Assembly: GCA_963783375.1 (NCBI GenBank)
Contig: CAWANH010000028.1
Location: 1,408,001-1,472,000 of the forward strand
DNA from: Candidatus Eiseniibacteriota bacterium
GTDB taxonomy: Bacteria > Eisenbacteria > RBG-16-71-46 > JABDJR01
Reading direction: 5' to 3'
DNA length: 64,000 nucleotides
A program made the position numbers and the translations under genes. Numbering within the stretch: position 1 is the stretch's first letter; every line of letters starts with the position of its first letter. Below the pieces are notes generated by a model, which saw only the letters and a list, made by a program, of their open reading frames with translations, did no database searches and was not told the DNA's origin. Shown one piece after another: positions 25,337-40,733 of the stretch.

Positions 25337-26059
25337 CCAGACCTCCTCGAATCAACGCGATCTTGGGATCGCAACCCCGAGAGTGCGGAACCGCCAAGAA
25401 TTTATCATATCAAAGATGCGCAGGGGCACGATTGGAGACGTTCGAGCCTCGCGGGTCCGGATACCGAGATCTCTTCGGGCGGTCAAGACCGGGGCGATTG
25501 AGCCCAATTCCCTCCGGGGATGGCGCACCGGCGGGTTCCCGTCCAGAAGGGCCTCACTCCCGGCAATTCCGCGACTCCGGAGCTGCCAAGTTACTGGCCA
25601 GCCCCGAGTTCAGGCCCTATGGGAGCATCTTGAGGAGAGAGAGTATTTCCCAGACAGTTGGAATCCTGGCACCCGATCCTCAATCTCCAGACCTCCCGCC
25701 ATCAGCCGACCGAGCCAGGGGTACCCTCCAATCAGCTTCGGCTAGCGAGCCCGCTTTCCCCGTCAAGAAACTGTCGAGCTTCAAACTGCTCCCTGGGCCA
25801 GCCTCGGCCCCGGTGAACGCCATGATGACGTGGAGGGTCGAAGACCGGATGCACGATCAGAATGCGAATCCCGTTGCGAAGCAGCCTTCCTCTGACTCGT
25901 CTTACACCAACTCCATGCGACGAGGTCGGCCGTCTCGGTGAGGCCATCGTGCGATTGTGCCGATGCCTGCGGAGACCGCGGGAGCGACGAACCTCGACCC
26001 CCTGAAGATCGACTCTCGCCCCTGTACGAGATGCAAGCGCCGGATCGGTTGCGACGATG

Positions 26060-26454
26060 ACCACCGTCCGGAGTGGGCCAATCAGAGGCTCTCGGAACTC
26101 CAGCACGAGAAGGCGGCACTGGAGCCCCAGGAGCCGGCCTTGAAGAAGCCGCCGAAACTAACGGCCGGAGACGTGACCGAGTACACCCGGAACCTGTCCG
26201 GGCTGCTGGGCCACGCTAACCAACGGGAAAGAAAGGAGTTGGTGGGTATGATCGTGGAGAAAATCAAACTGGCCCCGGAGCGTCGGGAGGTAGAACTCGT
26301 CTACCGCGCTCCGGAGCCAGTCATGAATAGGTTGGTAGCGGGGGTGCGTTACGGGGCCCGACAGAGGAATCTCGGAGGCGAATTCGAGGTCATCGAGCTG
26401 GCGTTCGAGCCCCGGGGGAACACGTTGGTCCTGGTGGGGGCGGCCGGCGGGTAG
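26060..26454 (+). pseudogene. C-terminal remnant of a large serine recombinase
   Basis: Coiled coil, ERKELVGMIVEKIKL...VELVY, then LVAGV encoded by a copy of the tRNA 3' end; no catalytic domain upstream. Confidence 0.6.
26332..26345 (+). repeat. 14-bp direct repeat of the tRNA-fMet 3' end (putative att core)
   Basis: TTGGTAGCGGGGGT here and at 40507-40520. Confidence 0.75.
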
Positions 26455-26478
26455 GAGAGCGGGTTCGCCGGGACGTCC

Positions 26479-26507
26479 TTGACGTCTCGCGATGGCCCGG
26501 ATAGAAT
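26479..26507 (+). promoter_or_regulatory. Sigma-70 promoter of the abiE operon
   Basis: TTGACG-N17-TAGAAT. Confidence 0.7.
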
Positions 26508-26544
26508 CACCAGCAGATTCGCATAACCGCTGGTATTTCTATTC

Positions 26545-27171
26545 ATGAAGACAGAACATAACTCAAATCAGGACAGCACGTTTGCCAGGGCGGTGGCCGT
26601 CTTCCGCGACCACGGAGGGGTGCTCAGGACAATGGAGGCGGTCCGGCTCGGCGTCCACCCGCGAACGCTCTATGCCATGCGGGATGCCGGGGTGCTGGAG
26701 CAACTCGGGCGGGGGCTCTACCGGCTGGCGAACCTGCCGCCACTCGGGAACCCCGACCTGGTGGCGGTAGGCCTCCGCGTTCCGGAGGGGGTCCTCTGCC
26801 TGATCTCGGCGCTGGCGGTTCACGAGATCACGACCCAGATCCCTCATGAGGTCCATCTGGCTCTCAAGCGTGGCGCCGAACCACCACGGCTGGATCACCC
26901 CCCGGTTCGGGTGTTCTGGTTCTCGGGAAAGGCTTTCACGGAAGGGATCGAAACCCACGAGCTGGACGGGATCGAAATCCGCGTCTACGGGGCGGCGAAG
27001 ACCGTGGCGGACTGCTTCAAGTACAGAAACAAGCTCGGACTGGATGTGGCCCTCGAGGCGCTGGGACTCTACCTGCGAGAGAAGCACGGACCCCCCGACG
27101 ATCTCGTGCACTTCGCTCGCGTATGTCGTGTCGAAAAGGTGATGCGCCCCTACATCGAGGCCCTCCTGTGA
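26545..27171 (+). CDS. abiEi: Type IV TA antitoxin, AbiEi family
   Basis: N-terminal wHTH (RGLYRL), CLISALAVHEITTQIP, KTVADCFKYRNKLG. Confidence 0.88.
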   Translation: MKTEHNSNQDSTFARAVAVFRDHGGVLRTMEAVRLGVHPRTLYAMRDAGVLEQLGRGLYRLANLPPLGNPDLVAVGLRVPEGVLCLISALAVHEITTQIPHEVHLALKRGAEPPRLDHPPVRVFWFSGKAFTEGIETHELDGIEIRVYGAAKTVADCFKYRNKLGLDVALEALGLYLREKHGPPDDLVHFARVCRVEKVMRPYIEALL

Positions 27172-28088
27172 AGCGCCGGCAGGTGGGAAACGTGGCGGTC
27201 TCCGTTCATCAGCGCCTGCTCAACGAGGCGCGTGCGTCCGGCCGGCCATTCAATGAGCTACTCCAGTACTTCGCCATGGAGCGATTCCTATTCCGGCTGT
27301 CCGCGTCGCCATACGCCGAGAGGTTTGTTCTGAAGGGGGCGCTCATGCTCGCGACGTGGGAGATCTCCCTCACGCGTCCCACCAAGGACATCGACCTACT
27401 GGGCAACGTGACCAACGACGTCGATCACATCGTGGCGATCGTGAAGGAAGTGTGCCGTCAAGAGGTCACGCCGGACGGCCTGGACTTCGACCCGGAGAGG
27501 GTGCGTGGGGAGCAAATCGCCGAGGAAGCCGAGTACAACGGGGTGCGTGTCCGCTTTCAGGGGCGCCTCGGTACGGCGCGGATTTCCATGCAGATCGACA
27601 TAGGCTTTGGTGACGCCGTGGTACCAGGCCCGGTGGCGGTCGAGTATCCCACGATGCTGGACCTTCCAGCTCCACGGATTCGCGCCTACACACAAGAGAG
27701 CGTGATCGCTGAGAAGTTCCACACCATGGTTCGCCGGGGACTCCTCAACAGCCGAATGAGGGATTTCTTCGATGTCTGGGCCCTATCGCGGCAGTTCGAC
27801 TTCGATGGGCCGGTTCTGGCGGCAGCAATCCGCGAGACGTTCTCGCGGCGAGGGCAAGGCTTTGCTCCACACCCCGTGGCGCTGACAAAGGAGTTCGCGG
27901 AGGATAGGTCGAAGGTGGCGCAGTGGCGGGGTCTTCTACGGAAGAGCCGCCTGCAGGGCGCGCCGGGCGAGCTGGCGGATGTGGTTGACGCCATTGCCGT
28001 CTTCCTCGGCCCGGTTGCAGAGGCCCTCTATGAGGATCGGGAGTTCCGAGGCCGTTGGGATGCGCCCGGTCCCTGGACGTTGGCGTGA
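27168..28088 (+). CDS. abiEii: Type IV TA nucleotidyltransferase toxin, AbiEii family
   Basis: FVLKGA, RPTKDIDL, AEKFH, SRMRDFFD; GTGA overlap with the antitoxin. Confidence 0.9.
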   Translation: MKRRQVGNVAVSVHQRLLNEARASGRPFNELLQYFAMERFLFRLSASPYAERFVLKGALMLATWEISLTRPTKDIDLLGNVTNDVDHIVAIVKEVCRQEVTPDGLDFDPERVRGEQIAEEAEYNGVRVRFQGRLGTARISMQIDIGFGDAVVPGPVAVEYPTMLDLPAPRIRAYTQESVIAEKFHTMVRRGLLNSRMRDFFDVWALSRQFDFDGPVLAAAIRETFSRRGQGFAPHPVALTKEFAEDRSKVAQWRGLLRKSRLQGAPGELADVVDAIAVFLGPVAEALYEDREFRGRWDAPGPWTLA

Positions 28089-28251
28089 AGTCCGGTTCTC
28101 CCGCGGGAAGCGGGCGCCCATCTTCCCGGACGGGGGGACGACGCCGATGGGGTCATCCGGGGCGCAGAGCCAGCCCAGAAGGCAGCGGTTCCTTTCGGGC
28201 CCAGTTTCTCGCGGGTGCCGGCGACCTCGGCTTTCGTGGCGTGGGAGAGCC

Positions 28252-28833
28252 GTGAAACAAGTTCCCATCCGTACCACCGGTGCCGGGAAACGCCCTGCCG
28301 AACTGGTCTCCCTGCGTGAATACGCCCGCCGGCGGAGCATCTCCCACGTCGCGGTGATCCGTGCCATCCGCTCGGGCCGGATCTCGACCGTTGGCGGGAA
28401 GATCGACCCGAAAGTGGCCGACCGGGAATGGCGGGAGAACACCGACCCGTCGAAACCCCGAAGCCGGATCACCGGCAGGCCGAATCACCGGCGACGACCC
28501 GGGGAACCGTCCACCCCGATGAACCTCGACGGCTACGGGGCCAGCGACACCACAGCGGCCGGTTACGCGAGGGCCCGCGCGGCGCGCGAGCTTTACCGGG
28601 CCCAGCTCCCGAAACTCGAGCTCGATTGCCGACGCGGAATCCTCGTCCGGGCCGACGAGGTCCGGCTCGGCGCCTTCAACGTGGCCCGGAAGGCCCGGGA
28701 CCAGCTGATCGCTCTCCCGGGCCGTATGTCGGCCCGTATCGCGGCGGCCGGGGACCCGGTCGAGATTCGGCGGATCCTCAAGGAGGAAATCGAGCGGATC
28801 TGCCGGGAGATCGTGGACACAGGACCGCCGTGA
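28252..28833 (+). CDS. Phage terminase small subunit-like (Nu1 type) orphan
   Basis: SLREYARRR.ISHVAV..AI..GRI HTH; YARARAARE.Y.A; RKARDQLIALPGR. Confidence 0.7.
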   Translation: MKQVPIRTTGAGKRPAELVSLREYARRRSISHVAVIRAIRSGRISTVGGKIDPKVADREWRENTDPSKPRSRITGRPNHRRRPGEPSTPMNLDGYGASDTTAAGYARARAARELYRAQLPKLELDCRRGILVRADEVRLGAFNVARKARDQLIALPGRMSARIAAAGDPVEIRRILKEEIERICREIVDTGPP

Positions 28834-28955
28834 GGTCGGCGAGGCGGCCCGCTGCCCCGACGGGGGAAATGGACCCAGGGGAGGGAGTACCCTCCGAGGC
28901 AGGGGCCGGCTCGGGTCACTATTGGGCGGACTTCCCCATCGAGCTGGTGTTCGTG

Positions 28956-29543
28956 CTACTGCGACGCTCTTGCCGACCGGAAGTAGAAGTCCAGCATGGC
29001 GCTCAGCGGGGCGGCATCCCGCTTCAGCCGGCTTCGAAGCGCCGCACCCTCCCAGCAGTCGACCAGTAGGCCCGCCATCTGCCGGGGATCGGAGCCGGCC
29101 GGGATGTCCCCGTTCCGGCGGGCCTCCTCCAGGCAGGCGGCCAGCCGCTCGGCGATCCCGGAGAAGCACTCCTCGATCCTGGCCCGGAATGCGTCGCTGA
29201 CCCCCGAGAGTTCCTGGCCGAGACCGCCGAGCAGGCAGCCCATGTAGCCCTCCTTCCGGTAGTGCTCCCGGGTCATCTCGAAGAAGTGACGCACCCGCTC
29301 AAGCGGGGGGCGGCGCGTGTCACCCAGGCAGGCATCCAGGCCGGCGTGCACCTCGCGCATGTACCGGTCGACGACCTGGAGCGCGAAGTCCTCCTTGTCC
29401 CTGAAGTGGTGGTAGAAGGAGCCCTTCGGGATCCCCGTGGCCTCCAGCAGGACCTGGACACCCAGCCCGTTGTACCCGTGCTCCAGGAGCATGGCCAACC
29501 CGGCGGTGAGCAGGCGATCCTTGGTCGGGTGCGTCGACTCCAT
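28956..29543 (-). CDS. TetR family regulator (NemR-like)
   Basis: GIPKGSFYHHF, GCLLGGLGQEL, WEGAALR. Confidence 0.9.
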   Translation of the reverse strand: MESTHPTKDRLLTAGLAMLLEHGYNGLGVQVLLEATGIPKGSFYHHFRDKEDFALQVVDRYMREVHAGLDACLGDTRRPPLERVRHFFEMTREHYRKEGYMGCLLGGLGQELSGVSDAFRARIEECFSGIAERLAACLEEARRNGDIPAGSDPRQMAGLLVDCWEGAALRSRLKRDAAPLSAMLDFYFRSARASQ

Positions 29544-29557
29544 TCTCGTGCGCGTTC

Positions 29558-29944
29558 CTACTTCTTGACCTTCTCGATCATGTGGTTGATGACGTGGGTG
29601 TGTTCGGACTGGGGGCTGAACATCACGATCTCGGCATCGGCCTCGACGCGGACGTTGTGCCCGGGAGGCCAGTAGAAGAGGTCGTTCGCGTTGACCGACT
29701 CCTCCGCGCCGCTCGCGTCGATCGTGGTGATCCGGCCCCGGAGGACGTAGCCCCAGTGGGGGCACTGGCAGAGGTTCCCCTCCAGCCCTTCGAAGAGGGG
29801 GGTGGTATCGACACCCGCCGACAGGGTGAAGTACTCACCGCTGATCGCGCCGAACCCGCTCGCGTCTCCGAACCCCTTCTGCTGGCGGACCACGGCGCCG
29901 GGGATCTCCATCTGGACCTCGACATTGTCTTTCGCTATTCGCAT
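29558..29944 (-). CDS. Cupin domain protein
   Basis: CQCPHWGYVLRG, FYWPPGH, FSPQSEH. Confidence 0.85.
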   Translation of the reverse strand: MRIAKDNVEVQMEIPGAVVRQQKGFGDASGFGAISGEYFTLSAGVDTTPLFEGLEGNLCQCPHWGYVLRGRITTIDASGAEESVNANDLFYWPPGHNVRVEADAEIVMFSPQSEHTHVINHMIEKVKK

Positions 29945-29978
29945 GCCGGACTCTCCTTCAACTGGTTGTGGGGGCCTG

Positions 29979-29998
29979 ACTAGACCGATCAGTCTAGT
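29979..29998. promoter_or_regulatory. NemR-type TetR operator palindrome
   Basis: ACTAGACCGATCAGTCTAGT, one mismatch to TAGACC-N4-GGTCTA. Confidence 0.75.
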
Positions 29999-30207
29999 GG
30001 GGAAGGGTACACCACGCTCTGGCCGTGTCAAGGAAGATGCGGGGTGACCCGGCGGACCCGGGCGGGGATGCACGCAGCTCCGATGGCCGCCGGTGCGATC
30101 CAGTATCCTCCACCGGTAAAGAGGGTTACGAGGTCGGGATGGCCGGATGACCGGGTGGCAATTGGCGAGCGCCGGCTCTCTCCGGGTGGAATACAAAGGT
30201 GCACGGG

Positions 30208-31738
30208 TGTACGTCGTCAACCCAAATGAGACAGCTCCGGTTCTGGGTTAAGAGAGACTTCGGTTCGGTAGAGCGCCGGCAGGATCCGTTCCTCCGGCGT
30301 GACCGACAGGCCCTGGTTCAGGCGGCACCGACGGCGTAGGGTCTGCCGCTTGAACTTCTCCCGGGCGGTCTCGATGTCCCGTCCCCGCCCGTAGTAGACA
30401 TCCGCCGGCGTCAGGTTGTTCAGCGACTCGTGCACGCGCTCGTGGTTGTAGTACCTCACGAACCGCTCCAGCTCCGCCTCCAACTCCCACGGCAGGTAGT
30501 AGTTCTGGAGCTTCACCACGTTCTTCATCGTCCGGTGGTACCGCTCGATCTTCCCCTGGGTCATCGGGTGATAGGGCTTTCCCCGGGTGTGGGTCATGCC
30601 ATGGCTCTGGAGGTACTCGGCCAGCTCCTTCGAGATGAAGCACGGACCGTAGTCGCTCAGGAGCCGGGGTCGGTGCCGGACCTCCACCCGGCGGACTCCG
30701 GTCCGCTCCAGGGCCACGTCCAGGACCTCGGTCACATCCTCGCTCGACATCCCGGTGAAGAGCTTCCAGGCCAGGATGTAGCGGCTGTAGTCGTCCAGCA
30801 CCGTGAGCACGTAGTACCAGCCCCAGCCTACCACCTTGAAGTACGTGAAGTCGGTCTGCCAGAGCTCGTGGACCCGCCGGGTCGGCTGGTCGAACTGGTC
30901 CTTGGCCGAGATCAGCACGTAGGCCGGGCTCGTCACCAGGTCGTAGCTCTTCAGGATCCGGTAGACGCTGGACTCCGAAATGAAGAACCCGCCCCGGTCG
31001 GTGATCCGCCAGGCCAGCTCCCGCGGGGACAGATCCGGCTCCGCCAGCGCCTCTTCCACAACCTTCTCCCGCTCCACCTCTGGGATCCGGTTCCAGAACG
31101 GCCGGGGCCCGGCGGCTTCGGCTCCAGCCCCGCCGGGCCGCCGTCCACGTACGCCCCGTCCGGCGGATCGGCGAAAAGGGGACATTTCAGTTCGGCGAAA
31201 TCGGGACAGCCGGGACCGGCGTTGACACCTCCACCAGGCGGATCGTCTACATCCGCTCCGCCGCCGTCGCCCTCACCGCGCCCCCAGGTCCTCGGGGTCC
31301 TCCCCCAACCCGGCTAAGTTTCTTTTTAACAGCTGGTTCCGCAGCGATAGGTCCGCCACCAGGTGCTTCAGCCGCCCGTTCTCCCGGCGCAACTCCGTCA
31401 CGTCCCCGCTCGAGGCTTCCCGCTTGGTGTCGCCCATCAGCCGGCGCTTGCGCGCCTCCAGGAACTCCTTGCTCCAGTTGTAGTAGAGGTTCGGGCTGAT
31501 CCCTTCCCGGCGGCAGAGCTCCGCGATGCTCTCCTCGCCCTTCAACCCCTCCAGCACGATCCGGATCTTGTCCTCGGCGGATTACCGGCGGCGGGTCTTC
31601 CGGCGGATCTGACGAACTCGAGCCTCTGGATCGGTTTGCTTCTCGGCCATGAAACACTCCTTTCGTGGCACCAATGTACCGCAGAAGTGTCTCTTAACTC
31701 AGGCCCTGACTCTGTCCCACTTAGTCTGACGCCGAACA
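30208..31738 (-). mobile_element. IS3 family insertion sequence, degraded
   Basis: Imperfect terminal IRs TGT(A/T)CG.CGTCA...GTTAAGAGA.ACTTC; OrfA (SIAELCRREGI, early TAA) and OrfB DDE (WQTDFTY, LDDYSR, GKIERYH); junction garbled. Confidence 0.88.
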
Positions 31739-31872
31739 AGGGAAGAAAGCTCCTGCCTGACACTGTGCCGCCCCCCCGCCTATCCGCTACAATCCGGTGT
31801 CCGCGCCATCCGTAGACGCGAGCTTCCGTACGTCCGAAGACTCATCGTTTCCTTCTTGGAGACCAGCAGGCC

Positions 31873-32856
31873 GTGAATGTGTATACGGTCCTCTCAGCTC
31901 TGCCAGCTGTCCTGGCCTTGGCTGGATTCCTTGCATACCAATTGCTACGGTACACCCATGCTGGTGATAATATCACCAGGGACATTGTTGCGAAATTGCG
32001 ACGAGAGCAACCCGAGATCGCAGACCGCTACGCACGCCTTTCACCCTCTCAGCTTCACAATCAACTCAAAGCAGATAGAGCATTACAACAAAAGATTAGC
32101 CAAATTGACTTCGAGCTTCTTAGGCAAGCACTGAGGCAACGGTTTCTTGAGTCTCTCTCAGTGTACGGCGCAACGCTCATTCTCTTCACTGTCGGCATTG
32201 TCGCGTTTGTCCGCACGATCTCGGCACGCCCTCTTCGTCTATCCGATTTCCACATCGAGAGCATAGATGACCACGCGAAGGGTCTTGCTGTCGACACCGA
32301 CACCTTGAGGGTTACCTGGAGGTCAGAAGGAACGTCCGCAGATGTGAGTTGCTATTTGCAAAATCTTCAGACTGGACGACGGTCGGACATTGAGCGCACT
32401 TCAGCAACCGAGCAAAATCTACTCTTTTCACCGACCTCCTACGTTGCTGTCCTTGATGCTCGGACCCGCGGATCATTCAATCGTATCCGGGCGGTTTTCA
32501 CAGCCAGCAACAGTACATTTCAGTCTGAGGAATTCAAGCTGTACGTTGGGTTAACAATTCTCGCTTTCTATGATTCCACAGACAATTAGCTATGTGCCGC
32601 AGCACTGATTGATAACGCTTCGATTCCGTGGTACCACTTTCGTGCCAAACTGATAGTACAAAGGATTGGACCTACCTTGGATTGGATTGGCTTTGGGGAC
32701 TCGATGGCAAGCCCCAAGACCTGCTATCACGTGGCGTCGCCTGACTCCTTGGAGTGGTCAACCCTCGCTGTTGCATACTTTGGACCGGATGATGATCGCC
32801 TGGTTCGTTCTGAGATTTTGGTCGGTGACACAACCCCCGGTGTATCACCTGATTGA
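31873..32856 (+). pseudogene. Low-GC membrane-anchored hypothetical protein with an in-frame TAG at 32587-32589
   Basis: Two TM segments; the frame stays open 88 more codons after the TAG, to TGA at 32854. Confidence 0.55.
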
Positions 32857-32904
32857 ACTTTCATCCCGGATCGTCGCTACATAGACCTTCTCGGCATCCC
32901 GGGC

Positions 32905-33005
32905 CACCCGGCTCTCCATGTCACCGCAAAGACGTAGGCCTGCTCATAGACCTTCTGCGGGTTCCCGGCGAAGTTGGTAACGACGAACCGGGGGTTGTCC
33001 TTGGG
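32905..33005 (-). mobile_element. IS1380-family transposase fragment
   Basis: NPRFVVTNF...VYEQ.Y, then shifted CGDMESR resembling Y..RGxMENRIKE. Confidence 0.55.
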
Positions 33006-33304
33006 CCTTTTGCCGGGGGGCCAGTAGCCGCTCCGCCTTGTAGTCCACCGGGCGGCAGCGAGGCCAGGCTTGGGGTTAGTTGCTAGGTCTGGCCGTGATA
33101 GCGTTGCGGCAGGTCCTTGCCTGAGGTTGAGGGCTTGTAATTGCCGATGACACAATGAAGTCGAGGATTTGTGTAATCCTCTTGGTAGATGACGAGCGAG
33201 CCCGGGCGGGCAGGGGGGGGGTGCCACCCAGCCCCTTGGCAAAGGCACCCGTCCTGAGCGACACTCCCCACGCAGACATTGAGCCTCTGTCAGCGGAGGT
33301 AAGC

Positions 33305-33694
33305 GTGGCGCGCAAATCGGCAGTAAAGAAGCGGATCAGCTCGGAACAGATTGGCCGAGCCTTTGAGACGCTCAACGGTGATTCGGAGACTCGTCTCAAA
33401 CGCCTCATGGACGAGACGGGTTTGGAGGCTGCGAAGCTCATCAAGATCCTGGTCACATATAGGGCGCGGCACTGGGTCCAGCAGGAGTTCCCCGGCTACG
33501 CCAGTGCAGGCGAAGGCCGGAAGCCGGCGAAGGACAAAGTCACAGTGTTGGCCGCACTCAACAAGGCTGGTTCCATCGTCCAAGCCGCGAAGCTGCTCAA
33601 GACCACCCCGATCACGCTCAACCGTTGGATCGGCTACTACAAGCTGAAGCAAATCATCGAGTACGGGGGCGAGAAGAAAATCTCCTGGAAGTAG
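33305..33694 (+). CDS. Small DNA-binding protein: helical domain plus C-terminal Fis-like HTH
   Basis: GGAGGT RBS and GTG; VLAALNKAGSIVQAAKLLKTTPITLNRWI. Confidence 0.65.
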   Translation: MARKSAVKKRISSEQIGRAFETLNGDSETRLKRLMDETGLEAAKLIKILVTYRARHWVQQEFPGYASAGEGRKPAKDKVTVLAALNKAGSIVQAAKLLKTTPITLNRWIGYYKLKQIIEYGGEKKISWK

Positions 33695-33699
33695 GGCGG

Positions 33700-33951
33700 T
33701 CAGTCGTCCTCGTTCTCGAAATTGAGTTCGATATCCTCCGGTTGCAACCTGGGCAACGACCGATCAGGGAACGTCTCGCGTGCCCAGTTCTCGGCGTAGC
33801 GCACAGCCACGGCACGAATCACGGCCCGCCCCGGGAGCCCCGTGTGCTCCACGATCCGGGCGAGACGGCGCTCCGAGGGACCTTTCAGACTGAAGTACAG
33901 ATCCGCCAACTCCCTACCGGTGAACGTCTTCGAGGCGTCGATCGGTAACAT
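33700..33951 (-). CDS. Small protein paralogous to the N-domain of the 33305 ORF, acidic tail
   Basis: LKGPSERRLARIVEHTGL...W...FP aligns with LNGDSETRLKRLMDETGL...W...FP. Confidence 0.6.
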   Translation of the reverse strand: MLPIDASKTFTGRELADLYFSLKGPSERRLARIVEHTGLPGRAVIRAVAVRYAENWARETFPDRSLPRLQPEDIELNFENEDD

Positions 33952-34046
33952 CGTACCCCCAGTCGTTGATCGCCCACCCCACCTCTCTGAAAACGACTGG
34001 GGAGACACGATTCGGAAAGAGACGTGTGGGCAGGTACAGAGAGTGT

Positions 34047-34871
34047 CTAGCGAGGAGCAGCGAGAACCGCTTCAAACCCGGATGGGGTCCGGTAGGTCAC
34101 GGCGAGGAAGGTCCGCCCGGACGTTTCGCTGCCGACGGGCGTTCGAATCTGGAACCGGTCGCCCTCGGCTGGCAGTTCGCCCCAGGAAAGCGTTAACGCT
34201 GGCAACCTGAGGATCGCCAGCCGACAGTCCGAGGCCTCAGGAGGGATGGATGCCTGATAGGTGCCGCCTCCCTCGGTCCGGAACGAGACCGTGCGTCCGC
34301 CCTGGGTGGTAGCGGGCGGGACCGGCTCCCCCTCGACGACGATTCCCCCCTCAGTCCATCGGAGTCTCTGGCGGAAGGCCAAGAGAGCGGCTTCTCGGAA
34401 GTCTTGAGGTGGTCGTGTCTGGGTCGCCTTGGACCCACGAACCGCGTCCACTTGGAACTGCTCACCGTAGTAGGGCGTATCCGCCACGAAACTAAGGGCT
34501 TCCCCGGATGGGTGCCGGACGCCACGAGCCAGGCCAATGGCGACGGCCAGCACGGCCGCCAGGCCCATCAGGAGTTGGATCGTCCGGGAGGGCCTGCGCT
34601 TGCGCCGCCGTTTGGGCACCACGGGGCGCGGCAGGGTCTGGAACTTCAGGGTGCCGCGCGCGATGGCGGCCAGGCCGACAAGCTCCTCCCGGAGCTCTCC
34701 GGATTGCGCGAGGAGCTGTGTGATGCGCTCCCGGTCCTCGGGAGTTACCGTTCCGTCAAGATAGTCCTCCAAGAGCTCGAGATCCACCTCCTCCGGGGAC
34801 GACCGGAGGGCGAGGGATCGGAGGGCCGCTGAGAGTTCGGTGTCCGTCATGTGCTTCGCTTCACGCGCCAT
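34047..34871 (-). CDS. Putative membrane anti-sigma factor
   Basis: LLEDYLDG...ERITQLL anti-sigma-like N-terminus, basic patch, one TM, extracytoplasmic domain; follows the ECF gene. Confidence 0.7.
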   Translation of the reverse strand: MAREAKHMTDTELSAALRSLALRSSPEEVDLELLEDYLDGTVTPEDRERITQLLAQSGELREELVGLAAIARGTLKFQTLPRPVVPKRRRKRRPSRTIQLLMGLAAVLAVAIGLARGVRHPSGEALSFVADTPYYGEQFQVDAVRGSKATQTRPPQDFREAALLAFRQRLRWTEGGIVVEGEPVPPATTQGGRTVSFRTEGGGTYQASIPPEASDCRLAILRLPALTLSWGELPAEGDRFQIRTPVGSETSGRTFLAVTYRTPSGFEAVLAAPR

Positions 34872-34883
34872 CGGTCATACCCT

Positions 34884-35525
34884 CTACCGTCCGAGTTCCA
34901 CGGAGATCCCCGTCCGCTCCAGTTGCTCGGTGAGCTTCCTCCGGCAATAGCGAACCTGGTCCGAGAGCTTCTTGTTCTCACTTGGCCCGGCTCCCAGGAG
35001 AATCTGAAGCTCTTGGGGTGTGTAGCCCTCGGCCGCGGCCTTGAGGAGGAGCTGACACTGTGGCGAGAGATGCTCCAAGGCCACCTCGACCTGCCGGAGG
35101 AGCTCCGCGAGTTCGGCTTGAACCTCGGGATCTGGCTCGGAGCTCTCAAGGGCCTCCAAGAGCTCACTTAGATCTTCGTGCCGGCGGTGCTGCTCGTATT
35201 TCATGCAATCCCGCGTGCGATTGCGAAGCACCGTCCAAAACCAGGAGGCGAAGGCCCGCCCCTTGTTTTCGTAGCTCCGCAACCGCCGGAAGTCATCCTC
35301 TCGAAGATCGAACAGAAGTTTTTGAAAGAGGTCAGCTTGATCCTCTTCGGACAGAGAACGAAAGATGGCTGGAGGTCGGAGCTGAACCAGCCGCCACGCA
35401 TAGACATAAAGCTCTTCCCACGCCTTCTCGGGATTGGCGTCGAGCCAGTCCATGAAGGACGGCCAAGGATCAGCGAGGATGGAAAAGGCGACAGGGTCCG
35501 TCCGGCCTGTCTCGACCTGAGACAT
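34884..35525 (-). CDS. ECF-type sigma-70 factor
   Basis: AWEELY...ADLFQ...FASWFWTVLRNRTRD (region 2); ALEHLSPQCQLLL...GYTPQEL (region 4). Confidence 0.85.
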   Translation of the reverse strand: MSQVETGRTDPVAFSILADPWPSFMDWLDANPEKAWEELYVYAWRLVQLRPPAIFRSLSEEDQADLFQKLLFDLREDDFRRLRSYENKGRAFASWFWTVLRNRTRDCMKYEQHRRHEDLSELLEALESSEPDPEVQAELAELLRQVEVALEHLSPQCQLLLKAAAEGYTPQELQILLGAGPSENKKLSDQVRYCRRKLTEQLERTGISVELGR

Positions 35526-35607
35526 GCGCCAGACTGTAGTGACACTCGGCACCTCACTGCAATGCACAATGCTGAGCCTCGCCTGTTTCCCCCATCGAGA
35601 TAACGTT

Positions 35608-36627
35608 TCAGGCGGCGGATTTCGGAATAGAAACCGCCAAATGTGCTGCTTTGAGAGAGTTCCAGGGGCAGCCCAAGTCCTCCGCCTGCCCCGTGGCCAC
35701 CCCCTGTAGCCACGGGGCCAATCTACCGGGATCGAGGACAAGGGTTCCGTCGGGGTTGATCCGGCCGACCCGGTTCCGGGAGTCGGTAAGGGCGACCGTG
35801 CACTTGTTGAGGTCTCCGTTCGCCCGGATGACCCAGGATGTGGCCATGGCCGCGTAGCAGATTGGAGGCGGTGGTGGGGCGGCATAGAGCCCAAGTTCCT
35901 CTGCTCTGTGCCGCAAGACCGCGATCGTCTCGTGCCCGTTGTGCCCGTCTAGTACGGGCAAGATCGGATCGTTCACTCCCCCGAGTCGCTCCAACGGCCG
36001 GATGAAAAAGGAGAACCGTGCGTCGTGCGCGAACGCCTGGGCACACTCCGTGAGGAGCTCTGGCAAGCGTTCGGCATTGGCCCGGGTGACATGGATCCGG
36101 ACGATCACAGAGAAGGGCAAGCGCTGGTCCTTTAGCGCGACGAGGCTCTCCCAGACTTGGGCGAACGTCCCCCTGCCGTTGGGGCGCTTCCTCACCGCAT
36201 CATGGTCGGGCTCAACCCCATCGAGGGTGATCTGGTAGTGCATGACACCGAGCCGAATGAGCTCCTCGGCGGTTCCGGGGGAGAGAAGGTCGCCGTTTGT
36301 GGTCATGTCCGAATCGACTTGGACCGCGGGATGCCGAGTGCGCAAATCTTGGACGTGGGCCATGATCTCACGCACGACGTCAAGGGCGACGAGCGGTTCC
36401 CCACCGAACCAGGACAGATCGAGCCGGCAGAGGTCGGGCACGCGAACATCGAGCAACCGTTTGATCCCCTGCACCACGGGCGGAGGCATGCGGGACAGCC
36501 GGAAGTCCTCGTAGCAGTAGTGGCAGCGGAAGTTACAGCGCTCGGTCGAAAAGAGGACGAGATGGAGCCGTCGGGACGAGAGGGCCTTCCCGTACCCCGA
36601 AGCTCCGCTCTGCTTGGTGGGTCTCAC
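35608..36627 (-). CDS. Radical SAM peptide-maturase-type enzyme with short C-terminal Cys domain, no RRE
   Basis: TERCNFRCHYCYE, WFGGEPL, TTNG, QITLDG, C-terminal CYAA...KCTV...CP; GTG start inferred. Confidence 0.9.
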   Translation of the reverse strand: MRPTKQSGASGYGKALSSRRLHLVLFSTERCNFRCHYCYEDFRLSRMPPPVVQGIKRLLDVRVPDLCRLDLSWFGGEPLVALDVVREIMAHVQDLRTRHPAVQVDSDMTTNGDLLSPGTAEELIRLGVMHYQITLDGVEPDHDAVRKRPNGRGTFAQVWESLVALKDQRLPFSVIVRIHVTRANAERLPELLTECAQAFAHDARFSFFIRPLERLGGVNDPILPVLDGHNGHETIAVLRHRAEELGLYAAPPPPPICYAAMATSWVIRANGDLNKCTVALTDSRNRVGRINPDGTLVLDPGRLAPWLQGVATGQAEDLGCPWNSLKAAHLAVSIPKSAA

Positions 36628-36635
36628 TTGGCGCG

Positions 36636-36839
36636 TCAGCACTTGTAGTTCGGAAGGATCGGCGGCCAGTCGTCTCCGTTGGGCTCCTGTAACGATGTGG
36701 TAAGCGTGGACACCACGCGGCCATGCGCGTCGAATTGGAGTTCGTGGCGGACAGGCATCTGGGCGTGCGCGGGCCGAGTTCCGAGGAGAAGGGTGACAAG
36801 CATGGCGCCTTGGAGCGTATACGTCGCAGATCGTTCCAC
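36636..36839 (-). CDS. Putative RiPP precursor peptide (67 aa)
   Basis: GGAGG RBS and GTG; fills the gap between the CHAT and rSAM genes; signal-like N-terminus, FDAHGRVV, C-terminal DDWPPILPNYKC. Confidence 0.7.
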   Translation of the reverse strand: MERSATYTLQGAMLVTLLLGTRPAHAQMPVRHELQFDAHGRVVSTLTTSLQEPNGDDWPPILPNYKC

Positions 36840-36884
36840 AGCAGACCTCCGGTCGAAACGGACACCGCCCCACGGCGGAGGTCG

Positions 36885-39857
36885 CTAGTCTCCGACCGCG
36901 AGGAAACAGGCCCAGTAGTAGGGATGAGTTGGTCTACCCGTAGAACGCCTGATCTGGAGAGTTTCGGACGAGGTATAGAAAGCCGCAACACTTGCCGAGC
37001 CGTCACGGTCCAGGAAGTGATCGTAGAAGCGCAGGCACCAGTCCCGACTCGGGTGATCTCCGATGTCCCAGATGGAAAGGATCGCGCTGTGTGCACCGGC
37101 GAGACGGAACGCGCGGTAAAGGCCAGCCACGCGCTCGCCCGGGAGCGCCGTTCCCTCGGATGACCGACAGCTAGAGAGGAAGACCAGCTCGACCGAGGAG
37201 AAGTCCTCCAAGGCGATCTCCCGTTCGCCCCAGACTCCGTCAAAGCCGCTCGAGTCAGCTAGCGGCCTGACTAGTCGCAAGCCGGCGCACGGCTCTCCGG
37301 TGAGCGGATCGGTCCAGTCGACGCCGTGGGCCGCAAGGTGCACAACGCGGGAGCCCGGGATGCGGCGAGGAAGGACACTCTCCCGCGCGGACGTCCCGGT
37401 GAGCAATGTCACTGGTTCACCCGGTCGGCGCTTCTTCCAAAGGGTAACGACTTGCTCCGCCTCATCGAGCGAGGCGGGGAGCTCAGCCGGGGCTCCTGAC
37501 CCCCATGCGGAGTAGTCAACACCACCGACGGCCAGAAGCCCCTTCCCGGTGGCCTCGCTCGCGGGCGAGATGAGCTCCCGCTCGCTCTCGGCGAGCCGGA
37601 AGCTTCCGAGCTCTTCCACGAGGTACGAGGTACGACCACGGGGGAGGGCAAGGACATTCACGTTCCACAGCGGCCCCGTCGGGATCAGCACGAGATCTTT
37701 GGGGAGGTTGCCGCCGAAGATGGGGTCCAACAACAGGTGGCGGAGGGCGGCGCCGAGGGATCGGTACGCCGCTTCTGCCCCGTCGGGGTCCAAGATGAGT
37801 TCCTCGGGGGCTTGCTCCATGAGGGTCTGTTGGCTGGTGACGAGGGTGTCAATCCGGCTGGCGGCCCCCAGATCCTGGAAGCGGACGTCCTTCTCAGGCT
37901 CCATGAGAAAGGCTCCGTAGTGAGGGGCGTTGCCTTTGCCGTACTGGACGTAGGCGATGAGCGTTGTCTCCGGGGGGAGCCCTTTGCGGAGGGCCTGAGT
38001 ATCCAGGGTCGGACGAGTTGGGGTGATCGGCCGGGAGGCAGCCAAGCGTTCTTCGAACCGCGCGATTTCGCCGTCCAGCCGCTGAAGCAACTTGGGAGAG
38101 ACGGGTGCGAGGCCCTCGACCGGGTCCATGGTGAGCAGGTTGGCCAGGTGCCGCTTGAGAGTACGGAGCGTGTCCGGTTCCGCTCCTAGCTCTCGTCGGC
38201 GCGTGAGTTCGTCGAGAAGTGAGCCGCGCGAGCCGATGGCGAGCGTCCATGCCGCCTCGACGAAGCGACTTCCCTTGCATGCGTCGTCGCTCAGGAGAGA
38301 GAGGAGGAGATCCAGGGAGGAGACCTCCTCCTTCCAGTAGGCGCTGATCTGCTCGGAAGTCATCGCCTGGAGGTTGAGCTGGTACCGATGGAGAGAGGCG
38401 GAGGCGGCATCATAGGCGAGCTCCCAGGCCGCGCGCGGATGACCTTGGGCGGAGCGAAGCTCACCCGCGGTTTCGTCCACTTTGGACCGAACGATGTGGT
38501 CCCGTGGTAGGGCCTTGACGGAGCTCAGAGCCTGAGCCGCCCAGCGCTCAGCCTCGGGCAGCCGGCCCCGGGCGGATAGGAACCGCACGTAGTCGGCGGC
38601 CAGGGAGCCAAACAAGGCCGGCTCTTTGGAGGGGTCCGCGTTCGCAAGACCCTTCTGGAAGAGCGAATCGGCACGGTTGGTACGACCGAGGCGCACGTCC
38701 AAGCGTGCGAGACGGGCCAGGGTGGGAACGGTCAAGGGGGAGTTGGCTCCGTAGATTCCCGTGAAGTATTTGAGGCTCGCCCGCAGCGTGTCGACCCCAG
38801 CCTGAAAGTGACCCTCCCTCTCCAGGATGTATGCCTGGATGGAGTAGTTCCGATTTCTCGTGCGCTCATCGGCGCCGTAGCGCTTGGCCACCTGCCGAAA
38901 CCGCTCCTCGAGCCGTTTGGTACCCGGGAGGTCTCCCAGGCGGCTTGTGATCTCTGCCGCCGTGACCGTTGTCCCCGCCGCGAGGGCCTTCTCGAGGTCC
39001 GGATGCCGCTCGATCGTCTCACTCACCTCGGTGATGACTTTGAGGGCGTCCCGGAAGTCTCCCTCCGCGGCGAGGCAAACGGCATATCCCCATCCGGTCT
39101 GGCAGAACAAGTGCGGCAAGCGGTTGCGGCGTGCCTCATAGGCCTGACGATAGAGATCCTCTGCCTCCGGCAAGCGACCCATTCCATGGAGGATCACGGC
39201 ATAGTCGTTACTCGTCCAGGCGAGATCGAGATCTTGCGGGGAAAGGACACGCTTCCTCACCTCGTAGACATGGGCGATGTGCTGGAGAGCCTCGGCGCGT
39301 CGCTTGAAGTGATCCAGGGTCTGTGCAAGCCCATGCTCGGCCCACAGGGTCTCGCGGTCGTCCGGTCCCAGGGTCTTGACGAGGATCTGCCAGGATTTGA
39401 GGAAGTCCCGATGGGCGGCTTCGAAGTTCCCAGTTGACAGATTCCAGCGAGCGTACCGCTCCAGGGTTATGTCGTAGCCGGCGGAGGAGTCGCCGGCGAC
39501 CGCGGCCCAGTCCGTCAGGGCGCGAGAGAGGTACTTGCCGGCCTCCTCAGTGCTGTCACCCCGGGCCAGGGCCCAGCCGTAGTCTCGGTGGAAGCGGGCG
39601 GAGAGGGAATCGGGTGGGCCCGAGGAGTCTAAACACCCGAGAAGCCGAGTGTAGGCAATGAGCGCCTCGGGGAAACGGCGGTTGGCGAGCAGGCTGTCCG
39701 CCACCGTAAGTTCTTGACGTATAACGGATTTGCTGCATGGCCACGACACCTCCTGGCAGAGACCGGGTACAGAGGTGATGCAGGGGGACAGGGCCAAGGC
39801 CACCACGGCGATGCAGCGGGCTGGCCACGTGGCTGGAGAGGCTGTTTTGGGGTTCAC
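36885..39857 (-). CDS. TPR + CHAT (caspase-like) domain protein, probably exported
   Basis: Signal-like N-terminus, many TPRs, VVHLAAHG and VFLSSCRS dyad, HPYYWACF end. Confidence 0.92.
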   Translation of the reverse strand: MNPKTASPATWPARCIAVVALALSPCITSVPGLCQEVSWPCSKSVIRQELTVADSLLANRRFPEALIAYTRLLGCLDSSGPPDSLSARFHRDYGWALARGDSTEEAGKYLSRALTDWAAVAGDSSAGYDITLERYARWNLSTGNFEAAHRDFLKSWQILVKTLGPDDRETLWAEHGLAQTLDHFKRRAEALQHIAHVYEVRKRVLSPQDLDLAWTSNDYAVILHGMGRLPEAEDLYRQAYEARRNRLPHLFCQTGWGYAVCLAAEGDFRDALKVITEVSETIERHPDLEKALAAGTTVTAAEITSRLGDLPGTKRLEERFRQVAKRYGADERTRNRNYSIQAYILEREGHFQAGVDTLRASLKYFTGIYGANSPLTVPTLARLARLDVRLGRTNRADSLFQKGLANADPSKEPALFGSLAADYVRFLSARGRLPEAERWAAQALSSVKALPRDHIVRSKVDETAGELRSAQGHPRAAWELAYDAASASLHRYQLNLQAMTSEQISAYWKEEVSSLDLLLSLLSDDACKGSRFVEAAWTLAIGSRGSLLDELTRRRELGAEPDTLRTLKRHLANLLTMDPVEGLAPVSPKLLQRLDGEIARFEERLAASRPITPTRPTLDTQALRKGLPPETTLIAYVQYGKGNAPHYGAFLMEPEKDVRFQDLGAASRIDTLVTSQQTLMEQAPEELILDPDGAEAAYRSLGAALRHLLLDPIFGGNLPKDLVLIPTGPLWNVNVLALPRGRTSYLVEELGSFRLAESERELISPASEATGKGLLAVGGVDYSAWGSGAPAELPASLDEAEQVVTLWKKRRPGEPVTLLTGTSARESVLPRRIPGSRVVHLAAHGVDWTDPLTGEPCAGLRLVRPLADSSGFDGVWGEREIALEDFSSVELVFLSSCRSSEGTALPGERVAGLYRAFRLAGAHSAILSIWDIGDHPSRDWCLRFYDHFLDRDGSASVAAFYTSSETLQIRRSTGRPTHPYYWACFLAVGD

Positions 39858-40466
39858 AGGATCCGGTTGTGAAAAGATTCCGAAAATGGTCCCTCTCAGT
39901 CGTTACAAAAGAGGTGGGCCGGTCCAGCTCGGTAGTCACTCGCCGAGCGGTGGGGCCACGGCCCAGAGAGGATATCACGTGGTGCCGGCCCCCAGTCGAT
40001 GGTGGAGAAACGGGGGAAACTAGGCTTCTTCACGACCGTGGGGGAAGTTCTAGGTTTCTTCACTGCGGGGGCTGGCGCCATCTCCCGCAATCGGATCCTG
40101 CCCGGGAAATGGAAGCGGCTCTGTGACGCGTCGAGGGGGGAGTCATTGCCTAAGGAAGGCCAGAAGAGCGTGGCAAGCAAAGGGGTCAGGCCGGAGTACG
40201 GCACCCGATCAACGGGCGAACCCGAAAACACCCGGGTGCTAACAAATCCCGTGCGGCGCATGACCATAGGGAGCCCGCTCTTGATCGTTACTCGGACGGG
40301 CTCCTAGGTCAGAGAAGGACGCCAAGCCCCCTATTCGGCCACTTCTCTGGGGGCATGTAACTCCGCCAGTCTACTGCCAGCGGAACAGCAGGCGCAGTTG
40401 CGAACACGGACAGTTTGGAGACTTGAGTCCCGAGGCTTACCCTCGCACTCGCGCCCCAGAGAATAC

Positions 40467-40500
40467 GAAAGCCCCCATCCCGCAAGGGGATAGGGGCTTC
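40467..40500 (-). terminator. Intrinsic terminator after the tRNA
   Basis: GAAGCCCCTATCCC-CTTGC-GGGATGGGGGCTTTC. Confidence 0.7.
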
Positions 40501-40507
40501 CTAAAAT

Positions 40508-40584
<77 letters not shown>

Positions 40585-40733
40585 ACCTTCAAACTCTTGG
40601 TGGGCAAAAGAGAGTACTCAATCGCCCGGGGGGCGTCAAGCCCCATCCGGATCCGGACCACGCCCCGGCAAGCTCCACCGGCCCACCGGCATCCGGCCGC
40701 TCGCCGGAGCGCTTCACCCCGGCCCCGATTCGG

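What the first reader, a model, noticed from the sequence alone, without database searches (positions are those of the whole stretch)
35608..36839. Small RiPP precursor ending WPPILPNYKC beside an RRE-less radical SAM enzyme
Seen: a 67-aa ORF with a GGAGG RBS that stops 8 bp before the inferred rSAM start. Order is signal-like segment (AHA-Q), FDAHGRVV, acidic spacer, then core. The rSAM is about 339 aa with only three C-terminal Cys. Known: NxxcB forms Cys-to-Asn beta-thioethers at NxxC motifs; the dynobactin core is the decamer WNSNVHSYRF. Inference: two testable chemistries. One is a thioether on the terminal N-Y-K-C. The other is a dynobactin-like decamer (W1, Y8 and basic residue 9 shared, but Pro replaces His6 and Ile replaces Asn4), which would need different crosslinks. 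A Sec-type signal on an rSAM substrate would be unusual.
Basis: partly seen in the sequence, partly recalled or inferred. Interest (0 to 1): 0.8.

Follow-up and report, generated by a model that had tools for sequence, protein, structure and literature searches.

The report
Cys-Asn ring peptide beside caspase-like switch
A small gene and the radical SAM enzyme next to it belong to a widespread peptide family with no curated model; the enzyme likely closes an Asn-x-x-Cys ring, and here the peptide carries a predicted export signal and sits inside a caspase-like protease and sigma-factor cassette that it may serve.

Summary
In detail: a 67-aa ORF (GGAGG, ending NYKC) stops 8 bp before a 339-aa radical SAM enzyme with three C-terminal Cys and no RRE. 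The NxxC reading is well supported; the dynobactin reading is not.

Homologues from bacteria and archaea carry precursors with a DxxG(R) hairpin leader. In a held-out test 49 of 58 had NxxC (shuffles 21±3), and the Trp is absent from the closest relatives. The enzyme looks like a CteB/CrpC-type thioether synthase that has lost its RRE and second auxiliary cluster; a sister clade keeps both and uses other leaders.

The pair lies in a TPR-CHAT protease–peptide–rSAM–ECF sigma–anti-sigma cassette. Twenty-four loci link enzyme and TPR-CHAT, 22 with an [N/D]xxC peptide. None of the 20 checked has the C39 exporter seen in 24 other loci.

The chemistry is untested and the CHAT link is inferred: CHAT/ECF modules without the enzyme carry other cargo. 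I found no family model or paper, but this scan noted both the family and the cassette on other DNA. Verdict: new variant of ranthipeptide-like RiPP.

The parts
36885..39857 (-). TPR-CHAT (caspase-like) protease, 990 aa, with a signal-like N-terminus; His and Cys motifs intact (HLAAHG at 840, FLSSC at 893)
   Evidence: Pfam CHAT E 3.7e-32 at residues 701-990 plus TPR repeats; motifs and hydropathy
36846..36850 (-). GGAGG ribosome-binding site of the precursor, 6 nt before the GTG
   Evidence: sequence
36636..36839 (-). 67-aa precursor: signal-like residues 1-26 (AHA|Q), DxxGR hairpin leader at about 35-43, acidic/Pro-Pro spacer, terminal N64-Y-K-C67 core
   Evidence: AF2 model with helix 9-19 and a hairpin, pLDDT 86 in residues 31-40 and 68 overall
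35608..36627 (-). Radical SAM enzyme, about 339 aa, CxxxCxxC at 31-38, no RRE, single three-Cys auxiliary site C257/C276/C320
   Evidence: Pfam Radical_SAM; below every NCBIfam cutoff, best TIGR04463 113 vs 525 bits; AF2 pLDDT 88.5; best Foldseek match CteB 5why E 2e-14; conservation
34884..35528 (-). ECF sigma factor, 214 aa
   Evidence: TIGR02937 52.2 bits, above the 42.9 cutoff
34047..34871 (-). Anti-sigma-like membrane protein, 274 aa, with one transmembrane segment at about 97-115
   Evidence: weak zf-HC2 and antisigma hits below cutoff; hydropathy; conserved after the sigma gene in G001 and G008

Best explanation
The 67-aa ORF is the likely substrate of the adjacent RRE-less radical SAM enzyme, which is predicted to join Cys67 to Asn64 through a thioether, giving a four-residue C-terminal ring on a peptide that is probably exported alongside the co-encoded TPR-CHAT protease. 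Shown by sequence: the gene order, the family-wide DxxG leader and NxxC core, the three-Cys auxiliary site, the absence of an RRE, and the recurring link to TPR-CHAT. Inferred steps: (1) the DxxG beta-hairpin leader is the handle by which the enzyme binds its substrate without an RRE; (2) the open iron of the three-Cys auxiliary cluster binds the Cys67 thiol, the 5'-deoxyadenosyl radical abstracts a hydrogen from Asn64 (most likely C-beta, as in NxxcB), and the C-S bond forms with loss of 2 Da and of the free thiol; (3) Sec export and signal peptidase cleavage after AHA replace the C39 ABC exporter used elsewhere in the family; (4) outside the membrane the ringed peptide meets the exported TPR-CHAT, as substrate or ligand, and the protease acts on the membrane anti-sigma to control the ECF sigma. 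Odds: steps 1-2 as an Asn-Cys thioether about 0.7 (beta rather than alpha about 2:1), step 3 about 0.55, step 4 about 0.35.
For: Family: a leader HMM finds 88 ORFs in 71 loci at E<=5 among 31,015. In the held-out test, seeded on the leader only, there were 58 hits in 47 loci; 58 of 58 had Cys and 49 of 58 had NxxC, against 21.2±3.4 in 2000 shuffles (max 32) and 447 of 9770 background ORFs. Asn lies at -3 of Cys in 87 of 177 cases against 26±4.4. Asp replaces Asn in two CHAT-linked cores, and NxxcB tolerates Asp at the acceptor (PMC9389541, passages). Enzyme: the best sequence and fold match is the thioether synthase CteB and the best NCBIfam model is TIGR04463. Its member CrpC forms thioethers and has a three-Cys AuxI at C333/C352/C403 (PMC13692751, named sections), the same 19-residue first spacing as C257/C276 here. 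Leader switch: the 114 other members of the clade have no CX2CX5C, and 80 of the 104 with 500 nt or more upstream have a precursor hit. The 43 sister enzymes all have CX2CX5C, 40 of 40 with a closed N-terminus have 95 residues or more before the CxxxCxxC, and their precursors have acidic leaders with no DxxG hairpin (4 weak hits of 39). No free-standing RRE of the sister type was found in G000 or in the 168 loci. CHAT link: 20 loci including the window have TPR-CHAT beside the enzyme and share none of the 24 C39-exporter loci. Four further loci from a later search fit the pattern. 22 of 24 CHAT loci have an [N/D]xxC peptide, and the peptide follows the CHAT gene even in the 5 loci ordered rSAM-CHAT-peptide. 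The same five-gene order occurs in G001.
Against: No biochemical data. Asn at -4 is also enriched (42 vs 24.7±4.2) and 9 of 58 held-out cores lack NxxC. An Asn/Cys pairing does not fix the carbon, since QmpB links Cys to Asn C-alpha and clusters with NxxcB (PMC11851443, text and supplement passages). The window peptide is a divergent member (HMM E 0.25-0.27, and third in its genome with a second HMM). Only 6 of the 23 CHAT-locus peptides listed have a signal-like start (judged by hydropathy and by eye), so export is not uniform. CHAT/ECF modules without rSAM exist in G000 and relatives and carry other cargo, and the 18 rSAM-linked and 7 unlinked CHAT domains interleave in a tree. The clade of CHAT-linked enzymes has only 0.67 support, and these loci are related, not independent. 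An ECF or kinase was in view in only 9 of 20 CHAT loci (flanks are short). The G001 rSAM has a frameshift near residue 200, either an assembly error at a 7-base run or decay.
Confidence: 0.62

Rival explanations
1. Same ring chemistry, but the peptide and enzyme are only cargo: an effector RiPP transcribed under a generic ECF/anti-sigma/TPR-CHAT switch, with no direct contact between peptide and protease. This is a rival to step 4 only.
For: G000 has a second module, ECF-kinase-TPR-CHAT, followed by a 278-aa lipoprotein and a subtilase-like gene (by eye) with no rSAM. G002 and G006 have the same lipoprotein after CHAT. rSAM-linked and unlinked CHAT domains interleave. Most CHAT-linked peptides lack an export signal although every full-length CHAT has a signal-like start.
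Against: The peptide stays directly behind CHAT in both gene orders. CHAT and C39 exporters never co-occur (0 of 20). CHAT-linked cores share a distinct form, a single near-terminal NxxC(xC). The lipoprotein cargo ends in a similar acidic-Trp-Pro-Pro tail in three genomes, which hints that CHAT reads the tail of the gene behind it.
Confidence: 0.4
2. The crosslink is an alpha-thioether (sactionine) to Asn64, or another Cys-dependent radical reaction at NxxC, rather than a beta-thioether.
For: QmpB forms an Asn C-alpha-S link. SkfB, a sactisynthase, is among the structural matches. The enzyme is below every curated cutoff, so its chemistry is unassigned.
Against: The nearest characterised relatives by score, CteB and CrpC/TIGR04463, are reported as non-alpha thioether synthases. 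The acceptor is restricted to Asn/Asp, residues with an activated C-beta (established chemistry, from my own knowledge).
Confidence: 0.22
3. A dynobactin-like decamer WPPILPNYKC with Trp or Tyr crosslinks.
For: Trp, Tyr and a basic residue fall at positions 1, 8 and 9 of a ten-residue tail after Asp-Asp. The enzyme is similar in length to the DynA model (356 positions).
Against: DynA 66 vs 450 bits, ranked sixth. Neither dynobactin crosslink site is present. The G001 and G005 peptides lack Trp and Tyr there. W..N occurs in 1 of 71, H.Y in 0 of 71 and W-x6-Y in 0 of 71 family cores.
Confidence: 0.03
4. The small ORF is a chance ORF or a decayed secreted-protein remnant; FDAHGRVV resembles a strand motif repeated in this genome's secreted proteins.
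For: Weak tblastn hits (E 1-29) of the FDxxGR stretch to FDAQGRKV-type motifs elsewhere in G000. No usable Atlas hit.
Against: An orthologous ORF with the same order of parts lies at the same position in G001 and G005. It has an RBS and coding-type GC3, and it is the top leader-HMM hit in the genome.
Confidence: 0.04

Closest known systems
NxxcA/NxxcB (streptococcal NxxC RaS-RiPP; PMC9389541 and PMC13361665, passages)
   Same: Asn three residues before Cys; a radical SAM enzyme; predicted Cys-S to Asn link activated on an auxiliary cluster
   Different: NxxcB has a two-cluster SPASM domain (PMC11851443, part 1 of 3) and an shp/rgg context in streptococci. This enzyme has one three-Cys site and no RRE, a DxxG hairpin leader and a TPR-CHAT/ECF context. 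The sequences were not compared directly.
CteB (SCIFF/thermocellin) and CrpC (TIGR04463) ranthisynthases (PDB 5why; PMC13692751, named sections)
   Same: Best fold and HMM matches; three-Cys AuxI with the same first spacing as CrpC (19 residues)
   Different: Both have an RRE and AuxII, and in CrpA the Cys precedes the acceptor. Here the RRE and AuxII are absent, the acceptor precedes the Cys, and the score is far below cutoff (113 vs 525).
DdvA/DdvS of Myxococcus xanthus (PMC11506125, abstract and part 1 of 2 of the Discussion)
   Same: Extracytoplasmic TPR-CHAT coupled to a membrane anti-sigma and an ECF sigma, with an unknown activating signal
   Different: DdvA is a fused anti-sigma/TPR-CHAT controlling CBASS-CRISPR. 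Here TPR-CHAT and anti-sigma are separate genes with a RiPP pair between them.
Bufferins (PMC11626156, passages)
   Same: RiPP precursor with a Sec signal peptide, modified in the cytoplasm, near an ECF sigma/anti-sigma pair
   Different: Modified by an MNIO enzyme with a partner protein into thiooxazoles; a copper metallophore; no radical SAM and no CHAT.
Dynobactin/DynA (PMC11002830 and PMC10125368, passages)
   Same: Radical SAM RiPP with an enzyme of similar length; the Asn C-beta is activated
   Different: Trp-Asn C-C and His-Tyr C-N links; those sites are absent here and the HMM score is far below cutoff.

Membership tests
Ranthipeptide (radical non-alpha thioether RiPP) | Radical SAM enzyme with an auxiliary Fe-S site that leaves an open iron | tested here: met
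   CxxxCxxC plus C257/C276/C320 conserved in 154-156 of 158, matching CrpC AuxI. Cluster occupancy itself was not measured.
Ranthipeptide (radical non-alpha thioether RiPP) | Adjacent Cys-containing precursor with a conserved acceptor | tested here: met
Ranthipeptide (radical non-alpha thioether RiPP) | Thioether to a beta or gamma carbon | not testable with these tools
   needs MS/MS and NMR
Streptococcal NxxC subfamily (NxxcB) | NxxC motif in the core | tested here: met
   N64-Y-K-C67
Streptococcal NxxC subfamily (NxxcB) | SPASM domain binding two auxiliary clusters | tested here: not met
   three C-terminal Cys, no CX2CX5C in the window enzyme or in 114 clade members; NxxcB feature from PMC11851443
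Streptococcal NxxC subfamily (NxxcB) | shp/rgg quorum-sensing context | tested here: not met
   neighbours are TPR-CHAT, ECF sigma and anti-sigma
Streptococcal NxxC subfamily (NxxcB) | Sequence clustering with NxxcB | not tested
   no tool returned the NxxcB sequence, only its accession
Dynobactin (DynA) | NF041298 score above cutoff | tested here: not met
   66.2 vs 450 bits
Dynobactin (DynA) | Trp(i)/Asn(i+3) and His/Tyr two residues apart in the core | tested here: not met
   W-P-P-I and no His; family counts 1 of 71 and 0 of 71; crosslinks
TIGR04463 (CrpC-type) | HMM cutoff, RRE and AuxII | tested here: not met
   113 vs 525 bits, match starts at profile position 80; no RRE and no AuxII
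DdvA/DdvS-type TPR-CHAT anti-sigma system | TPR-CHAT fused to a transmembrane anti-sigma | tested here: not met
   separate genes
DdvA/DdvS-type TPR-CHAT anti-sigma system | Extracytoplasmic TPR-CHAT with His-Cys residues beside an ECF sigma | tested here: met
   localisation inferred from a signal-like N-terminus
Sec-exported RiPP precursors (bufferin-like logic) | Functional Sec signal peptide | tested here: inconclusive
   short hydrophobic helix plus AHA, shared in form with G001 and G005; no predictor or assay available

The most novel reading that the evidence does not exclude
An undescribed peptide-signalling circuit. An RRE-less radical SAM enzyme recognises a self-folding hairpin leader and makes an Asn-Cys ring peptide, which is exported and acts as the trigger or substrate of a secreted caspase-like TPR-CHAT protease that releases an ECF sigma. 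It would be the first RiPP tied to a CHAT protease and a candidate for the unknown signal of TPR-CHAT/ECF switches.
Probability: 0.3. Interest if true: 0.88.

Novelty: new variant of a known kind. Interest (0 to 1): 0.62.

Why it matters
The family spans many bacterial phyla and archaea, yet none of the 30 homologous precursors scanned matched a Pfam or NCBIfam model for the hairpin leader. It would also be missed by RRE-based genome mining (inference). The clean switch from RRE plus acidic leader to no RRE plus hairpin leader makes RRE-independent substrate recognition directly testable with a 339-aa enzyme and a 41-aa peptide. If the CHAT link is functional, it offers a defined candidate ligand for extracytoplasmic TPR-CHAT/ECF systems, whose signal is unknown even for DdvA. 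It would also add a protease class that a leader-protease review does not mention (0 occurrences of CHAT or caspase in the main text of PMC10885120).

Tried and rejected
Dynobactin-like reading: rejected.

Secreted-protein remnant: rejected.

Idea that the leader is a relocated piece of the RRE: profile comparison gave only probability 4.9%, E 0.008 over 12 columns; not claimed. Likeness of the leader to the enzyme's own C-terminal hairpin gave probability 5.8%, E 0.0065; weak, noted only.

The first motif statistics were partly circular because seeds were chosen with NxxC; they were redone with held-out, leader-only seeds.

RBS-occluding hairpins behind the CHAT stop in G000 and G001 were not more stable than shuffles (z -0.94 and -1.33). 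The promoter/terminator scan was at chance level. No second att copy of the tRNA 3' end was found in the window.

Viral contigs held no relative. The ESM Atlas gave no usable hit for the window peptide and only scores under 0.8 for a typical member. No RNA holder was listed.

Complex prediction of enzyme with peptide was not available, so binding was not modelled. The precursor model (pLDDT 68, pTM 0.26) was too weak for a fold search.

Rows dropped: 4 of 173 loci as duplicates; 11 of 169 enzymes under 270 aa, including frameshifted G001, left out of the tree; of 10 loci, 2 duplicated earlier loci, 2 ended inside CHAT and 2 had no CHAT in view; L035 was left out of the list but is counted as a miss.

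Literature: ten searches listed no paper on this family or cassette. Subscription papers, such as the primary NxxcB, DynA and ChlB papers and the SPECO and rSAM-RiPP atlas studies, are not in the library and may list it in their supplements; bioRxiv supplements were closed.

Full report
Observation. The small ORF lies at 36636-36839 on the minus strand, 67 aa, with GGAGG 6 nt before its GTG. It stops 8 nt before a GTG that opens a 339-aa radical SAM gene; a start five codons earlier is also possible. The enzyme has CxxxCxxC at 31-38 and three Cys in its C-terminal domain (257, 276, 320). The AlphaFold model (pLDDT 88.5) begins directly with the radical SAM barrel, so there is no RRE. Contigs from three public DNA runs cover the junction without differences.

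Surroundings. The pair is the middle of a five-gene co-directional run: TPR-CHAT protease (990 aa, signal-like start, His and Cys motifs intact), precursor, rSAM, ECF sigma, and a membrane anti-sigma-like protein. Gaps are 45, 8, 79 and 12 nt. The run follows a tRNA-Met in a stretch of lower GC that also holds an AbiEi/AbiEii pair and an integrase-core gene, so it probably lies in an island (inference). Distribution is patchy: 18 of 206 genomes of the phylum. Several of the best named loci are titled Candidatus Eisenbacteria, which suggests the lineage (inference). G001, of the same genus, has the same five genes, with a frameshift in its rSAM.

The precursor family. I fetched 173 loci around homologues, 169 distinct. 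Small ORFs beside them share a leader (I/V)x(I/L/F)DxxG(R/K/E)(V/I), usually followed by a helix-like segment, and end in Asn/Cys-rich cores. They occur in Actinobacteria, Cyanobacteria, Proteobacteria, Bacillota and Planctomycetota, and, seen by eye, in four archaeal loci. The first statistics were partly circular, so I reseeded on the leader alone and scored held-out loci. That gave 58 hits in 47 loci, all with Cys and 49 with NxxC, against 21.2±3.4 in shuffles and 447 of 9770 background ORFs. Asn lies at -3 of Cys in 87 of 177 cases (26±4.4 expected), with weaker enrichment at -4 (42 vs 24.7). None of 30 precursors matched a curated model for this leader; a few hit double-glycine leader models weakly. 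The window peptide is a divergent member: E 0.25 in the loci, top of 58,942 ORFs in its genome with the leader HMM, third with a full-length HMM. Its closest orthologues end GDPPLSNPLCGEV (G001) and NDPPTSNTRCGR (G005): Pro-Pro and NxxC are kept, Trp and Tyr are not.

The enzyme. It falls below every NCBIfam cutoff; the best is TIGR04463 at 113 of 525 bits and DynA scores 66 of 450. The best solved relative by sequence and fold is CteB. CrpC, a TIGR04463 member, forms thioethers, is proposed to be a ranthisynthase, and has a three-Cys AuxI at 333/352/403 (PMC13692751; part 2 of 9, the Discussion and passages read). The window's 257/276/320 match this pattern while the AuxII cysteines are missing. 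A tree of 158 of 169 enzymes splits them. The window and 114 others have no CX2CX5C and short N-termini (median 47.5 residues from the upstream stop; 8 of 112 at 95 or more), and 80 of 104 have a precursor hit. The 43 sister enzymes all have CX2CX5C and a long N-terminal domain (40 of 40). That domain matches the N-terminus of TigE (E 0.0074; that this region is its RRE is recalled) and the RRE-bearing part of TIGR04463. The sister precursors have acidic leaders but also Asn/Cys cores. The loss of the RRE therefore coincides with the DxxG hairpin leader, and no free RRE of the sister type was found nearby or in G000. A model of the precursor shows a helix at 9-19 and a hairpin in the best-predicted block. 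That the hairpin binds the enzyme is inferred and was not modelled.

Chemistry. [quoted passage not shown] The same logic fits here, and Asp replaces Asn in two CHAT-linked cores. QmpB shows that an alpha-link to Asn is also possible. Dynobactin needs Trp(i)-Asn(i+3) and a His/Tyr pair; neither is present in the peptide, and the family shows 1 of 71 and 0 of 71.

The CHAT subfamily. Twenty loci including the window have TPR-CHAT next to the enzyme. None of them has a C39 exporter, which 24 other loci have. Four more CHAT loci came from a later search. In 22 of 24 the small gene carries [N/D]xxC near its end; L003 and L035 do not. The peptide follows CHAT directly in 22 of the 23 listed, including the five loci ordered rSAM-CHAT-peptide. 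These enzymes form one 22-tip clade with modest support (0.67). Against a dedicated link: G000, G002 and G006 have CHAT modules followed by a lipoprotein and no rSAM, CHAT domains with and without rSAM interleave, and only 6 of 23 peptides have a signal-like start although the full-length CHATs all do. One hint for a link: those lipoproteins end PAWPPIQG, PAWPPIQD and PAWPPCQGGC, like the window's DDWPPILP. A more distant homologue ends DPPWPTPTP, but two others lack the tail. This was noticed after the fact.

Known systems. It works like NxxcB, is built like a reduced CteB/CrpC, and is a member of neither family. The cassette recalls DdvA/DdvS (PMC11506125; abstract, outline and part 1 of the Discussion) but is split into separate genes. 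Sec signals on RiPP precursors have precedent in bufferins and other MNIO substrates (PMC11626156 and PMC12452194, passages); the passages I read describe none for a radical SAM substrate. Other papers seen: PMC11851443 (part 1 of 3 and supplement passages), PMC10288494 (part 2 of 8), and passages of PMC10125368, PMC11002830, PMC12710340, PMC10885120 and PMC7826278; the last two have no mention of CHAT in their main text. Ten searches listed no paper on the family. Earlier unchecked notes of this scan describe the CHAT cassette with DxxC peptides in two windows of other DNA and the RRE-less NxxC family in a cyanobacterium. I saw them after reaching the same reading, and they are not independent evidence.

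Verdict. Real, and a new variant of a known kind. Overall confidence is 0.62 (Asn-Cys thioether about 0.7; direct role with CHAT about 0.35). Interest is 0.62. The signalling-circuit reading has probability about 0.3 and would merit 0.88.

Noticed in passing
G000 C29 about 1,518,999-1,528,011 (L204); also L202, L203: A paralogous ECF-Ser/Thr kinase-TPR-CHAT module followed by a 278-aa lipoprotein of no Pfam family (5 homologues) ending in a PAWPP tail, then a subtilase-like gene (by eye); no rSAM.
   Followed up: partly
L137, L077, L065, L072, L154, L040, L047 and others (43 loci): A sister clade of RRE plus full-SPASM enzymes, below TIGR04463 cutoff in the one member scanned (L137), with acidic, mostly GG-type leaders and Asn/Cys cores such as NNGC and NGNC; apparently also without a curated model.
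   Followed up: partly
L013, L042, L055, L073: Archaeal loci (Marsarchaeota, Thermoplasmata, Pyrobaculum by record title) carry the RRE-less enzyme with DxxG-leader, NxxC-type precursors.
   Followed up: no
L021, L093, L117; L081, L190, L006: Precursors with twin-arginine-like or lipoprotein-like N-termini ahead of the DxxG leader, suggesting several independent gains of export signals.
   Followed up: partly
window 36885-36839 (-) and L174:10425-10510: A stem-loop directly behind the CHAT stop codon pairs with the precursor RBS in both G000 and G001, which could couple translation; the folding energy is not beyond shuffles.
   Followed up: partly
window about 25,900-40,600: Probable island beside tRNA-Met (40508-40584): lower GC, an AbiEi/AbiEii type IV toxin-antitoxin pair (26545-28088), an integrase-core (IS-type) gene (30217-31185) and several unassigned ORFs (31873-34008).
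   Followed up: partly
window rSAM residues about 284-306: The enzyme's C-terminal hairpin-helix weakly resembles the precursor leader, here and in many clade members.
   Followed up: partly
L011, L022, L092, L108, L111, L112, L184, L190: Long precursors with what look like two tandem copies of the hairpin-helix leader unit.
   Followed up: no
L140, L145, L147, L148, L064, L056: A subgroup of the RRE-less clade with no detected precursor but with a TPR protein, an HExxH intramembrane metalloprotease (weak daptide-type hit) and an unassigned 372-aa protein.
   Followed up: no
G001 C4 about 315,640 (L174): The rSAM frameshift lies near a 7-base homopolymer; an assembly error or real decay.
   Followed up: partly
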